DNA of 64,000 nt, taken from the NCBI RefSeq assembly GCF_002113885.1, contig NW_018408850.1, positions 222,739-286,738 on the forward strand, written 5' to 3'. This stretch comes from Mizuhopecten yessoensis. Taxonomy: Eukaryota. This document shows positions 1 through 3,000 of the stretch, one piece after another; position 1 is the first letter of the stretch, and every line of letters begins with the position of its first letter. Position numbers: made by a program.

Positions 1-3000
1 TGATATTAACTTTACATGATCTATCATAAACAAATGTATGTGTACTACATTTTTCCAGGAACAGATCGAATGGGCTGTAGCAGGCGGAGCGGATTATATT
101 GTCGCGGAAACGTTCAACGACGTTGGAGAAGCTTTGTTAGCGCTCGAATGTATCAAAGAATATGGAAAAGGTACATAAACTCTGCATGGAGGTTTCAAAA
201 TCAACATTTCAATTTATAAATATTTTGTATTCAAAATTTGATTTTCTAGAGGTTTTATTTTACACCCCATGGTTCTGGTGAACTCGTTGTATCTTGAATA
301 TATTTTGTCAGGGTTATAATTGATATTTGCTTTAAAGTAGGAGGCATGGTAGTCAAGTGGTAGGACGCCGGGCTCGTGACCGAAGGGTTGCGTGTTCGAG
401 TCACGGCACGGCACTGTGTTGTATATTTGAGCAAGATACTTTACTTCGCTTGTTCCAGTCTACTCAGCTGTAGTTAAGTACGTGGTTGGGCAGTGCTAGA
501 ATTGTTGAATGCTAGCTGTCAGCGCCGAAATGAAAGTTCCGGTTGTATGCTCCCCAGGGAGTTGAGAAAGGTATTGGCTGGTTGTAAATGCCCTATAACC
601 ATGGATAATAATATGTGAACCGCTTTGAGACGACCTACGAACTAGGTTGTGATAAAGCTGTATACAAGAACCTCGAATTATTATTACTAAACTAGCTGCT
701 GTAGCGAAAAATATCTTTGGTAATTTGTATTCGTAAGTATTGATACTGCATTATGAACACAATCGTTATTTGAACTGAAAAAAATAGATAAAGCTAGGAA
801 AAGTACGAAAGAGGAAGAAGTACAATGGGCCATTTAAAAAGTCTCGAGATAATATTGACAAGGTGTTATGTAAGTGTTACCATATTTTGCTTCGCCGAAA
901 CCGCCACTTTAATCCAAGTAAATATGTGTAACGTCATGCCCTTGTAGTTGGAACCGATGAGGTGATCACGAAATAACAAGCTCGTGAGTTTCGAATTAAT
1001 TGCGACAGCTAAACCCTAGTTTGGGGATGTTATTATCAAGAAAAGGATAGGAAAGTCGAAACGTGTCACGTGTATCATACAGCTTAGTAGTTAACCTTCC
1101 TTGTTACTCATGTTTAAAGTTCTAATTTAATATGACCTGATATCCAAAGAGAATTCAAATTTTCCTAAAAATATTTCTCAATGAGGTCCGTGAGTTCGAT
1201 ATAAATTAAGAAATATGAGAAAAAAATCAAACAAAATATGAAATTATTTATTATCAGTACCAGCCGTCATCACCATGGGTAGCTTAGTAACTGGTTTGAC
1301 GGCTGATGGCTTTACCCACGTGGAGGCGAGTCTTCGGCTGGAGGAAGCAGGGGCGGACGTAGTGGGGCTCAACTGTTCACGGGGCCCGACTACCATGATG
1401 CCATTCATGAAGGAGATACGACAACAGTGTAAAGTATGTGTCATGTAATTACATCGTGATTATTTTCACTCAATAAATGACCATTAAACCCAGAAACATT
1501 CAGGTTAATTATAACCGCAGCTGGTAGTAAAACTAAATTCAAACCTGTATTCTTTTGCAAGAAAATACTTTCAGTCCAGATGTAATAATATTTCCTGTGG
1601 CGATGGTATAATTTACATGACCAATAAAGGGAATATTTTGTTTGAAGGGACCGATAGCCGCGTTGCCTGTGCCTTACAGAACAACTCCCACCCAACCAAC
1701 CATGCAGTCTCTCATTGTCCCGGAGACAGGTAAATTAAATACGCCTTAGCCACATTCTGGCATTATCACTGATATTTTTTGTTTTACTTTTAAATTTAGA
1801 TGAAATATCTTACGTACAACAGCTGGAATCCCATATATGGGTTGGAATAATTTTTCTACATTTCATTTTTGTATCGAACATTCATATATTCCTGCATTTT
1901 TTTAAATTTGAAATTGGGAGTAATAATTTAAAGATGTGATAGTAATGTGTAAGAATGTCCAGTACAAAGTTTGCCGGAACAATTGCCTTTACCCCAGACA
2001 TATGTTTAGCAAAGGATAAAACCAGGTCTTTACTCATAGACAGTAGTTTTCACTTTCCTATGTCATACAGAAGTTCCATATATCATTCAGAAATATTTGT
2101 ATTATATGTTTTACAGATAAATATGCCTTCCCGGTTGACCTTCCAGCGTTTACCTGCTCAAGAACGACTGTTCGTGACTTTGCACGGGAATGTCTGAAGA
2201 TAGGCGTGCAGTACATTGGATTATGTTGCGGAAACAGTCCGCATTACATCCGGGAGTTGGCGGAAGAATGTGGAAGAAGTCCTCCGGCCAGCAGATATTC
2301 CCCAAATATGTCTGAACACTACATATTCGATGGTAACGTCAAAGAATATCATGCCAAAACGTTACTCAACGAAATAAGGACCTGAACTGTGCGAAAAATT
2401 TAAAAAAAATAAATAATGTAGAGCAGTTGCCGTTAAAGGAAAGTGGAAGAAGATCTCCGGGCAGCAAATATTCCCCAAATATGTCTGGACATTGTACATT
2501 TGGTTGTAACGTCAAGGAATATCATGCCAGAATGTTACGCCTCGAGATTAGAAACTGAATTAAGTACATATATGATTTAAAATATTTAATAATGTGATAT
2601 GATTAAGTTATTGAGAAATGTCTCTTACATGCATTACATATTCATTTACTAATTACTCAATTCTTTTATTTTTTTTACACTGCACTTCCCCAACTCTCTT
2701 CTAACTTCCCCTGTAATTTATTCACGTCACTATCCCTACGCTATAGTTGATAATGTTGGTTACGATGAAAGGTAACAGATAATAATAAGTCTATCAACAC
2801 TTGTTTCTGTTTCCAATTCATTTATGTATAATCATATTTGTATTATGTATTACATATGTTATGTGAATAAAACAAAGTTTAAACCAATCGTCAATCAAGA
2901 TATTTTTCTTTTTTCTTTTCCCTTTTTTTTTTTTTTTGCATCTCTCGTGGAGGAAATTGAAAACAAACATGCGCTTTTAAACAAATTTATTGACAATTGT

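What the first reader, a model, noticed from the sequence alone, without database searches (positions are those of the whole stretch)
2182..2558. One-sided gene conversion replaced the 3' end of BHMT copy 1 and left its old C-terminus stranded
Seen: the first 65 nt of the last exon differ from copy 2 at about 13 sites, but 2182-2385 differ at only 3 of ~204 sites, and high similarity runs ~55 nt into the 3' UTR. At ~2442 the sequence jumps back (GGAA-like microhomology) into a diverged but still open copy of the last 37 codons. Inference: a repair tract copied from copy 2 or a similar paralog displaced the native ending, producing a chimeric enzyme while preserving the ancestral tail.
Basis: partly seen in the sequence, partly recalled or inferred. 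Interest (0 to 1): 0.65.

Follow-up and report, generated by a model that had tools for sequence, protein, structure and literature searches.

The report
Patched scallop BHMT gene end
In a scallop, the end of one of two neighbouring BHMT-like genes has been overwritten with sequence from the other, and the old ending survives just downstream as an unused leftover; this is a tidy natural example of a known DNA-repair outcome, in a gene copy that is probably truncated.

Summary
The window is Mizuhopecten yessoensis. It holds two tandem BHMT-like genes: copy 1 (last exon 2117-2385) and copy 2 (last exon 12097-12365).

- **Mosaic:** the copies differ at 13 of 65 sites in 2117-2181, at 3 of 204 in 2182-2385, and at 7 of 57 in the 3' UTR 2386-2442.
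- **Synonymous divergence:** dS is 0.024 in the tract and 0.45-0.65 in the four other coding segments. No 204-site window was this clean in 200,000 permutations.
- **Relic:** copy-2 similarity stops at 2442. A diverged copy of the last 38 codons starts there (2439-2558), 22 of 120 sites different from copy 2, dS 0.38, out of frame with the gene.

Best reading (0.55): one break-repair event copied copy 2 from inside the exon to 57 nt past its stop. It then rejoined copy 1 by a 3-4 nt microhomology, inserting a net 173 nt and stranding the native tail.

Rivals I could not exclude are an older 173-bp tandem duplication plus ordinary conversion, and a short-read assembly chimera.

"Chimeric enzyme" is doubtful, because public copy-1 models lack about 120 of 283 domain positions.

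Protein trees suggest the same terminal segment was homogenised separately in three scallop genera.

This is a known mechanism and a new instance of it.

The parts
59..170 (+). Copy 1, first exon visible in the window (EQIEWAV...EYGK). The window starts 58 nt upstream, so earlier exons cannot be seen.
   Evidence: tblastn of public proteins. 11 of 112 sites differ from copy 2 9247-9358. dS 0.53, dN 0.023.
1258..1433 (+). Copy 1 exon (VPAVITMG...RQQCK).
   Evidence: 30 of 176 sites differ from copy 2. dS 0.65.
1648..1730 (+). Copy 1 exon (GPIAALPV...VPET).
   Evidence: 13 of 83 sites differ. dS 0.51.
2117..2181 (+). 5' part of copy 1's last exon, still at background divergence (native copy 1).
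   Evidence: 13 of 65 sites differ from 12097-12161. dS 0.45, dN 0.16.
2182..2385 (+). Copy-2-like coding tract, with the stop codon TGA at 2383-2385.
   Evidence: 3 of 204 sites differ (2205, 2257, 2330). dS 0.024. 0 of 200,000 permutations match it.
2386..2442 (+). Copy-2-like 3' UTR carried in with the tract. It contains AATAAA at 2408-2413.
   Evidence: 50 of 57 positions are identical to 12366-12421, while introns and downstream flanks of the two copies are mostly unalignable.
2438..2442 (+). Junction. GGAAA is the last copy-2 match. GAA at 2439-2441 is shared with exon position 2266-2268 (microhomology).
   Evidence: Read directly.
2439..2558 (+). Relic: a diverged copy of the last 38 codons plus stop (TGA 2556-2558), shifted 173 nt and out of frame with the gene.
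   Evidence: BLASTN 81-82% identity, E 4e-27 and 1e-28. 22 of 120 sites differ from copy 2 and 23 of 120 from copy 1. Translation. dS 0.38, dN 0.19 against copy 2.
12097..12365 (+). Last exon of copy 2, the likely donor (or a close stand-in for it).
   Evidence: 100% tblastn match to public protein P0005. Alignment.
12366..12421 (+). Copy 2 3' UTR segment that reappears in copy 1. AATAAA lies at 12386-12391. Similarity to copy 1 ends at 12421.

Best explanation
A single break-repair event in the Mizuhopecten lineage rebuilt the 3' end of BHMT-like copy 1 from its tandem neighbour copy 2, or from a near-identical allele or paralog. Inferred steps: a break in copy 1's last exon; the upstream end invaded the homologous exon of copy 2 just after position 2181; DNA synthesis then copied 204 nt of coding sequence, the stop codon and 57 nt of copy 2's 3' UTR. 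The new strand did not re-anneal at the homologous point of copy 1, plausibly because the native tail is about 19% diverged. It was instead joined to the other broken end through a 3-4 nt microhomology (GAA/GGAA) at the position equivalent to 2266. The result is a net 173-nt insertion. About 84 nt of native exon were lost. The native last 38 codons with their stop were pushed downstream, out of frame and behind the imported stop and AATAAA, where they now decay as a non-coding relic. Shown: the mosaic, its significance, the junction, and the relic's age relative to the tract. Inferred: that it was one event, the direction (copy 2 to copy 1), and the repair pathway.
For: (1) There is a sharp change in divergence from 13 of 65 sites to 3 of 204 sites at 2181/2182. 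dS is 0.024 in the tract against 0.45-0.65 in four other coding segments. 0 of 200,000 permutations reproduce it. (2) Near-identity continues through 57 nt of UTR (50 of 57 positions), although non-coding flanks of the two genes are otherwise mostly unalignable. This is therefore copying, not selection. (3) Copy-2 similarity ends at 2442 and relic similarity starts at 2439-2443, so the two breakpoints coincide, as expected if the event made the junction. (4) The relic's dS against copy 2 (0.38) is close to, though slightly below, the background range between the copies. It also keeps the ancestral R and K seen in the other scallop and oyster homologues aligned (GRR...SK), where both current ends have S and R. 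It is therefore older than the tract. (5) The relic and the Mizuhopecten ends share I in ..EIR., where the four Argopecten and Ylistrum tails have Q or K, which places the relic in this lineage. (6) The two non-synonymous differences inside the tract are derived in copy 1. L replaces the V found in 5 of the 6 scallop sequences (the sixth, P0012, has I; several outgroups already have L there), and D replaces a G found in all 11 other aligned sequences. The relic carries the G state at 2503. This argues for a real, separately evolving copy and against copy-2 reads pasted in. (7) The same terminal segment looks homogenised within Argopecten and Ylistrum as well. Within-species identity is 56 of 66 and 64 of 67, against 48 of 66 and 49 of 67 for same-group pairs across species. 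AU tests reject the paralog grouping in the tail (p 0.0007-0.004) and reject the species pairs in the 279 upstream columns (p 0.031 and 0.011). Exchange between these neighbours is therefore habitual.
Against: The UTR part of the tract is more diverged (7 of 57) than synonymous sites in the coding part (1 of about 42). The difference is not significant (Fisher P 0.13), but it allows two events or a donor other than copy 2. A two-step history gives the same final layout and was not excluded. The sequence comes from a scaffolded assembly with N runs (14705 and 26810-27517). A separate 1631-bp contig encodes the same copy-1 protein and stops inside the tract, at about 2244, which hints that assemblers struggled here. 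No read-level evidence was available. No other species or protein shows a relic-like tail. The clades tested were named after the trees had been seen, and supports on these short alignments are moderate (80-93). The placement of copy 1 among the paralog groups is unresolved (p-AU 0.066 and 0.20 for the alternative).
Confidence: 0.55

Rival explanations
1. Two steps. An older 173-bp tandem duplication inside copy 1 (2266-2438 and 2439-2611) first made a second, unused tail. Later an ordinary gene conversion from copy 2 overwrote 2182 to about 2431-2442, that is, the first unit only.
For: The final layout is identical to that of the one-event model. The relic's downstream flank shows a marginal, roughly collinear similarity to the tract's UTR (local score 13 against 9.1 +/- 1.6 for shuffles; 58 of 2000 shuffles reach it), as expected if the relic carries its own UTR. 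This is expected under both models. The higher divergence of the UTR part (7 of 57) than of coding synonymous sites would fit more than one event.
Against: It needs two events, plus a coincidence. The converted stretch must reach at least the 14-of-14 identical block at 2418-2431, which is within 11 nt of the duplication junction, yet still find homology to its right for resolution. Only 7 matched bases remain there. The relic's dS against copy 2 (0.38) shows no extra neutral decay beyond the gene-wide 0.45-0.65.
Confidence: 0.15
2. Assembly chimera. True copy 1 ends in the relic. A short-read assembler or gap filler extended from copy 1 into reads of copy 2 (or its other allele) and then forced a join back to the copy-1 contig.
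For: The window is a scaffolded draft with N runs. The copies share exact runs of 51, 72 and 65 nt inside the tract (from the mismatch positions), which is long enough to tangle a short-k-mer graph. A redundant 1631-bp contig encoding the same copy-1 protein breaks at about 2244, inside the tract. Scallops are highly heterozygous (recalled, not checked here), so a copy-2 allele could explain some of the differences.
Against: The tract is not identical to copy 2: 10 of 261 positions differ. These include a Gly-to-Asp change at a residue that is Gly in all 11 other aligned sequences. There is no N at or near the junction; the nearest is 12 kb away. The 3' join rests on only 3-4 shared bases, which overlap-based assembly would not normally accept. 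Both public annotations use this structure, although they derive from the same assembly.
Confidence: 0.2
3. The template was a copy-2 transcript or cDNA rather than the chromosomal gene (RNA-templated break repair). The tract then ends where the mRNA ended.
For: The tract lies wholly inside one exon. It ends 30 nt after the donor's AATAAA (12386-12391, with similarity ending at 12421). This is at the far edge of the usual 10-30 nt distance from signal to cleavage site (that distance is recalled).
Against: There are no untemplated A residues at the junction beyond the AAA also present in the genomic donor. No intron was crossed, so the diagnostic signature is absent. A chromosomal donor only 10 kb away is the simpler source.
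Confidence: 0.05

Closest known systems
Interlocus (ectopic) gene conversion and concerted evolution of tandem duplicates
   Same: There is a block of near-identity between paralogs, including synonymous and non-coding sites, flanked by background divergence. Trees are incongruent between segments.
   Different: Ordinary conversion replaces sequence one for one. Here the recipient gained 173 nt and kept its displaced native tail, so the right-hand end was not resolved by homology.
One-sided invasion, or synthesis-dependent repair finished by end joining. Sources: Belmaaza and Chartrand 1994 and Puchta 1998, seen only as reference-list entries in PMC4888836 and PMC9299229, plus an introductory passage in PMC9299229. 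Coupled homologous/non-homologous repair in mammalian cells is recalled, not read here.
   Same: One junction is homologous and the other non-homologous with a few bases of microhomology. Donor sequence beyond the shared region is copied in, and recipient sequence is duplicated at the join.
   Different: Those cases are induced breaks in cultured cells, plants or flies. This would be a spontaneous, germline-fixed event between natural paralogs, inferred from sequence alone.
BHMT-type homocysteine S-methyltransferases (Pfam PF02574); tandem BHMT/BHMT2 in vertebrates (recalled)
   Same: Copy 2 (345 aa) matches PF02574 over profile positions 25-282 of 283 and is 60-84% identical to the listed homologues, most of them molluscan BHMT-like proteins. 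Both copies keep the GLNC and GLCCG cysteine motifs.
   Different: The public copy-1 models lack the first ~120 profile positions and begin with unrelated residues. Copy 1 may not be an enzyme at all.

Membership tests
BHMT / homocysteine S-methyltransferase (PF02574) | Complete Hcy-binding barrel domain | tested here: not met
   Copy 1 models P0004 and P0128 match profile positions 122-282 and 125-282 of 283. Copy 2 (P0005) matches 25-282. Upstream copy-1 exons, if any, lie outside the window.
BHMT / homocysteine S-methyltransferase (PF02574) | Cysteine motifs taken to bind zinc (one Cys in GLNC, two in GLCCG; the role is recalled from the vertebrate enzyme) | tested here: met
   GLNCSRGP and GLCCGN are present in copy 1, and GLNCTRGP and GLCCGN in copy 2. 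Only the presence of the motifs was checked.
BHMT / homocysteine S-methyltransferase (PF02574) | Methyl transfer from betaine (or S-methylmethionine) to homocysteine | not testable with these tools
Source names differ (BHMT1-like, BHMT2) for the same protein.
Interlocus gene conversion | A segment significantly less diverged than the rest of the paralog pair | tested here: met
   3 of 204 sites differ against 67 of 436 elsewhere. Hypergeometric P 3e-9. 0 of 200,000 permutations match it.
Interlocus gene conversion | The low divergence extends to synonymous and non-coding sites | tested here: met
   dS 0.024 against 0.45-0.65. UTR 50 of 57 identical.
Interlocus gene conversion | Phylogenetic incongruence between the tract and the flanks | tested here: inconclusive
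   For Argopecten and Ylistrum the tail groups by species and the upstream part by paralog (AU p 0.0007-0.004 and 0.011-0.031). For Mizuhopecten itself the two copies are sister or unresolved in both parts, so the incongruence is not shown for this pair.
Interlocus gene conversion | Direction: donor unchanged, recipient overwritten | tested here: inconclusive
   Direction is inferred only from the relic lying in copy 1 and from the coincidence of breakpoints. There is no outgroup DNA.
One-sided invasion / homologous start with end-joined finish | One homologous junction, without an indel | tested here: met
   The reading frame and the ungapped offset 9980 hold across 2181/2182.
One-sided invasion / homologous start with end-joined finish | A second junction that is non-homologous, with at most a few bases of microhomology and donor-only sequence copied in | tested here: met
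   57 nt of donor UTR are followed by a GAA/GGAA overlap and a jump back of 173 nt.
One-sided invasion / homologous start with end-joined finish | Both junctions made in a single event | not testable with these tools
   This needs population or sister-species DNA, or reads. No eukaryotic genome collection was available.
Assembly chimera | Inserted stretch identical to the other copy; a gap or N at the join | tested here: not met
   10 of 261 positions differ from copy 2. No N lies within 12 kb. Read support itself could not be tested.

The most novel reading that the evidence does not exclude
The patch was copied from a copy-2 messenger RNA or its cDNA, not from the chromosome. It lies within a single exon and stops 30 nt after the donor's AATAAA, about where the transcript would end. 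That would make it a fixed germline example of RNA-templated break repair in an animal. Its relic gives the 'before' state, and the same exon has been repeatedly homogenised in three scallop genera.
Probability: 0.05. Interest if true: 0.7.

Novelty: new member of a known kind. Interest (0 to 1): 0.35.

Why it matters
Gene conversion normally erases what it replaces. Here the overwritten ending seems to survive next to its replacement, so one locus shows both the 'before' and the 'after' state. That allows a direct reading of how far the paralogs had drifted before exchange: 22 of 120 sites, dS 0.38. It also shows how the repair was finished: 57 nt of overshoot into the donor's UTR, then a 3-4 nt microhomology join. 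It is a natural counterpart of the one-sided invasion products known from induced breaks. It also cautions annotation, because the C-terminus of this copy is borrowed and the copy itself seems truncated. The hint that the same terminal segment is homogenised in Argopecten and Ylistrum suggests a recurrent exchange zone in scallop BHMT-like tandem pairs. This would distort orthology calls based on the C-terminal part.

Tried and rejected
- **Selection instead of copying:** rejected. Synonymous sites and the UTR are also near-identical.
- **Relic as a recent duplicate of the present end:** rejected. It differs at 22-23 of 120 sites and keeps ancestral residues.
- **Open relic frame as evidence of function:** rejected. 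38,925 to 59,669 of 100,000 randomly mutated copies stay open. Pfam finds nothing in the relic ORF.
  - A database search with the 56-aa relic ORF against longer proteins gave 7 candidates, none with E <= 10.
  - Among the tails of the 126 homologues compared, the best relic matches are 24 of 38 residues (Ylistrum P0012 and Mizuhopecten copy 2).
  - This gives no support and no refutation, because the tails of the other species appear homogenised too.
- **Copy 1 as orthologue of the Argopecten P0006 / Ylistrum P0012 group:** neither shown nor rejected (p-AU 0.066 and 0.20).
- **Homology between the relic's downstream flank and copy 2's downstream flank:** only marginal (104 of 2000 and 58 of 2000 shuffles reach the score).
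- **More BHMT-like copies or relics in the window:** none at tblastn E <= 1e-3 or BLASTN E <= 1e-3.
- **Literature:**
  - 'BHMT' + 'scallop' gave 9 papers, none about these genes judging by title and abstract.
  - 'gene conversion' + 'tandem duplicates' + 'bivalve' gave 0 papers.
  - The genome paper was not held, so the assembly method is unverified.
  - A look into PMC5905365 (passages only) gave nothing on the Mizuhopecten assembly.
- **Spliced model:** the window's exons were not joined. Window peptides were searched exon by exon. Whole-protein comparisons used public annotated proteins returned by those searches.
- **Not checked:**
  - Any reads or transcripts.
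Full report
**What the window is.** The peptide of the exon in question is 100% identical to a Mizuhopecten yessoensis protein named betaine--homocysteine S-methyltransferase 1 (P0004, OWF39507.1). It is 92% identical to a second protein from the same 624,779-bp contig (P0005). The window is therefore Yesso scallop, not human. tblastn of these public proteins maps two tandem genes on the + strand.
- Copy 1 has exons at 59-170, 1258-1433, 1648-1730 and 2117-2385.
- Copy 2 has six coding exons between about 8222 and 12365. Its last exon is 12097-12365.
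- No third copy or further fragment appears in the 64 kb at E <= 1e-3.

Window peptides were searched one exon at a time. Whole-protein work used public annotated proteins that those searches returned.

**The observation.**
- With an ungapped offset of 9980, the two last exons differ at 13 of 65 sites in 2117-2181 and at 3 of 204 sites in 2182-2385 (positions 2205, 2257, 2330).
- Past the shared TGA (2383-2385), 57 nt of 3' UTR align with 6 substitutions and one single-base indel.
- After 2442 the two genes have nothing in common.
- From 2439 to 2559, copy 1 repeats the last part of the exon at 81-82% identity (E 4e-27 against itself, 1e-28 against copy 2). That is 23 and 22 differences in 120 nt.
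- The repeat ends in its own TGA (2556-2558) and reads ...SGRRSPGSKYSPNMSGHCTFGCNVKEYHARMLRLEIRN*.
- The shift is 173 nt, so the relic is out of frame with the gene.
- The junction reads ...TTAAAGGAAA|GTGGAAGAAG... GGAAA is the last match to copy 2's UTR, and GAA (2439-2441) also matches exon positions 2266-2268.

**Is it more than chance or selection?** Per-exon Nei-Gojobori estimates were made on whole codons only, without joining exons.

| Segment | dS |
|---|---|
| Exon 59-170 | 0.53 |
| Exon 1258-1433 | 0.65 |
| Exon 1648-1730 | 0.51 |
| 2119-2181 (start of last exon) | 0.45 |
| Tract 2182-2382 | 0.024 |

- Of 640 aligned coding sites, 70 differ. The chance that a fixed block of 204 holds 3 or fewer is 3e-9.
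- None of 200,000 permutations gave any such block; the lowest count seen was 4.
- Synonymous differences alone give Fisher P 1.3e-6.
- The near-identity includes synonymous sites and UTR, so purifying selection cannot be the cause. The tract was copied recently relative to the age of the pair.

**How old is the relic?**
- Against copy 2 the relic has dS 0.38 and dN 0.19. Its synonymous distance is of the order of the gene-wide distance between the copies, not of the tract.
- In an alignment with four other scallop proteins and six other bivalves, the relic keeps R and K (GRR...SK), as the other scallop and oyster sequences do. Both present Mizuhopecten ends carry S and R.
- The relic shares I in ..EIR. 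with the Mizuhopecten ends, where the four Argopecten and Ylistrum tails have Q or K.
- The relic is therefore a Mizuhopecten-lineage sequence that split from copy 2's tail about when the rest of copy 1 did. That is what a native copy-1 ending would look like.
- About a dozen of its residue changes are its own, against three or four on the copy-2 side (read). It has therefore drifted faster.
- Its intact frame carries no weight, because 39-60% of simulated copies with 11-22 random substitutions stay open.

**Mechanism.** The simplest account is one repair event.
- It began with a homologous start inside the exon, just after 2181.
- Copying ran through the donor's stop and 57 nt of its UTR.
- It ended with a non-homologous, microhomology-guided join back to copy 1 at the position equivalent to 2266.
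- That single event creates the junction, which explains why copy-2 similarity ends at the base where the relic begins.
- It replaces about 84 nt of native exon, adds a net 173 nt, and leaves the native tail behind the imported stop codon and behind the imported AATAAA (2408-2413).
- Failure to re-anneal at the proper place is plausible because the native tail is about 19% diverged; this step is inference.
- This is the 'one-sided invasion' type of product. I saw that term only in reference lists and one introductory passage.

**What weakens it.**
- *Two-step history.* A 173-bp tandem duplication followed by ordinary conversion of the first unit gives the same layout. It requires the converted stretch to run to within 11 nt of the duplication junction (the 14-of-14 identical block at 2418-2431, then 7 matched bases). 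That is a coincidence, but not an impossibility.
- *Uneven divergence in the tract.* The UTR part (7 of 57) is more diverged than synonymous coding sites (1 of about 42). This is not significant (P 0.13), but it leaves room for a second event, error-prone repair synthesis, or a donor that is not exactly the present copy 2.
- *Draft assembly.*
  - The window has N at 14705 and at 26810-27517.
  - A redundant 1631-bp contig encodes the same copy-1 protein and stops at about 2244, inside the tract.
  - Exact runs of 51-72 nt shared by the copies could confuse a short-read assembler.
  - Against a chimera: 10 of 261 tract positions differ from copy 2.
  - Both amino-acid differences are derived in copy 1. 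One hits a Gly present in all 11 other aligned sequences.
  - The 3' join has only 3-4 shared bases.
  - I could not check reads, and the genome paper is not held.

**Is copy 1 an enzyme?**
- Both public models are short: 219 aa, starting in what is intron sequence in the window, and 233 aa, starting with 21 unrelated residues. Copy 2 has 345 aa.
- The copy-1 models cover only Pfam PF02574 positions 122/125-282 of 283.
- The window begins 58 nt before the first visible exon, so I cannot say whether earlier exons exist.
- Divergence in the visible exons (summed dN about 0.08 against dS about 0.56) shows that copy 1 was constrained for most of its history.
- The two replacements since the patch (V to L and G to D) hint at relaxation, but two changes prove nothing.
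- 'Chimeric enzyme' is therefore not established.

**Wider pattern.** Argopecten irradians and Ylistrum balloti each have two close homologues on one contig.
- In the 279 upstream alignment columns, these proteins group by paralog (P0006 with P0012; P0008 and P0007 with the Mizuhopecten copies). Species pairs are rejected (p-AU 0.031 and 0.011).
- In the last 67-69 columns they group by species, and the paralog groupings are rejected (p-AU 0.0007, 0.0038, 0.0037).
- Identities say the same. Within-species identity in the tail is 65 of 67, 56 of 66 and 64 of 67. Same-group identity across species is 48 of 66 and 49 of 67.
- Caveats: the groups were chosen after seeing the trees, the alignments are short, only proteins were available, and rows were limited to 12 chosen sequences out of the 126 stored.
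- If this holds at the DNA level, the terminal segment is a recurrent exchange zone.

**Verdict.** The feature is real as sequence, statistically solid, and well explained by conversion from the neighbouring paralog with a non-homologous finish. It is a new instance of a known mechanism, in a gene copy of doubtful function. Confirmation depends on read-level evidence that I could not obtain. No paper on it was found in two searches.

Noticed in passing
window 1-170 and upstream (outside the window); public proteins P0004, P0128: Copy 1 is annotated only as a 5'-truncated product. One model has 219 aa and starts in intron sequence at about 36. The other has 233 aa with an unrelated 21-residue first exon outside the window. 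Both lack about 120 of the 283 PF02574 profile positions.
   Followed up: partly
public protein P0127 (123 aa, partial) on a separate 1631-bp contig: A second, unplaced contig encodes a protein identical to copy 1 from exon 1258-1433 up to ...GNSPH (window ~2244). It therefore ends inside the tract, about 20 nt before the duplicated unit starts. It is either a haplotig or a sign of assembly trouble.
   Followed up: partly
public proteins P0006/P0008 (Argopecten irradians) and P0007/P0012 (Ylistrum balloti): The C-terminal ~67 residues of the paired paralogs cluster by species, while the upstream 279 columns cluster by paralog. This suggests independent homogenisation of the same segment in three genera.
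   Followed up: partly
window 340-574 and 5176-5386; 5394-5631: An interspersed repeat is present in copy 1's intron and again in the intergenic region (76.6% identity). By eye its start looks tRNA-like, but ARAGORN calls no tRNA in the window. The second copy is followed by a (CAT)n run of 78 units.
   Followed up: no
window 42090-43744: A G-rich 31-bp minisatellite of about 53 copies. It causes the GC 0.549 and GC-skew 0.49 spike in the composition profile.
   Followed up: no
window 18846-20036; 25329-26053; 34656-35239; 59975-60377; 60641-61344: Several further minisatellites, with 30-, 55-, 47-, 40- and 56/342-bp units in 10-39 copies.
   Followed up: no
window 47143-50550, minus strand: Three long open exons of a family-20 glycoside hydrolase (hexosaminidase/chitobiase type): CHB_HEX at 49816-50550, GH20b plus the start of GH20 at 48962-49567, and the GH20 catalytic part at 47143-47925.
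   Followed up: no
window 31978-32457, minus strand: An open frame with a BTB/POZ domain (E 3e-8).
   Followed up: no
window 8016-8126: An alternative first coding exon of copy 2, used by the public isoform X3 (P0129, 374 aa).
   Followed up: no
window 14705; 26810-27517: A single N and a 708-base N run. They were left as they are. The six stop-free frames listed there are artefacts of the N run.
   Followed up: no
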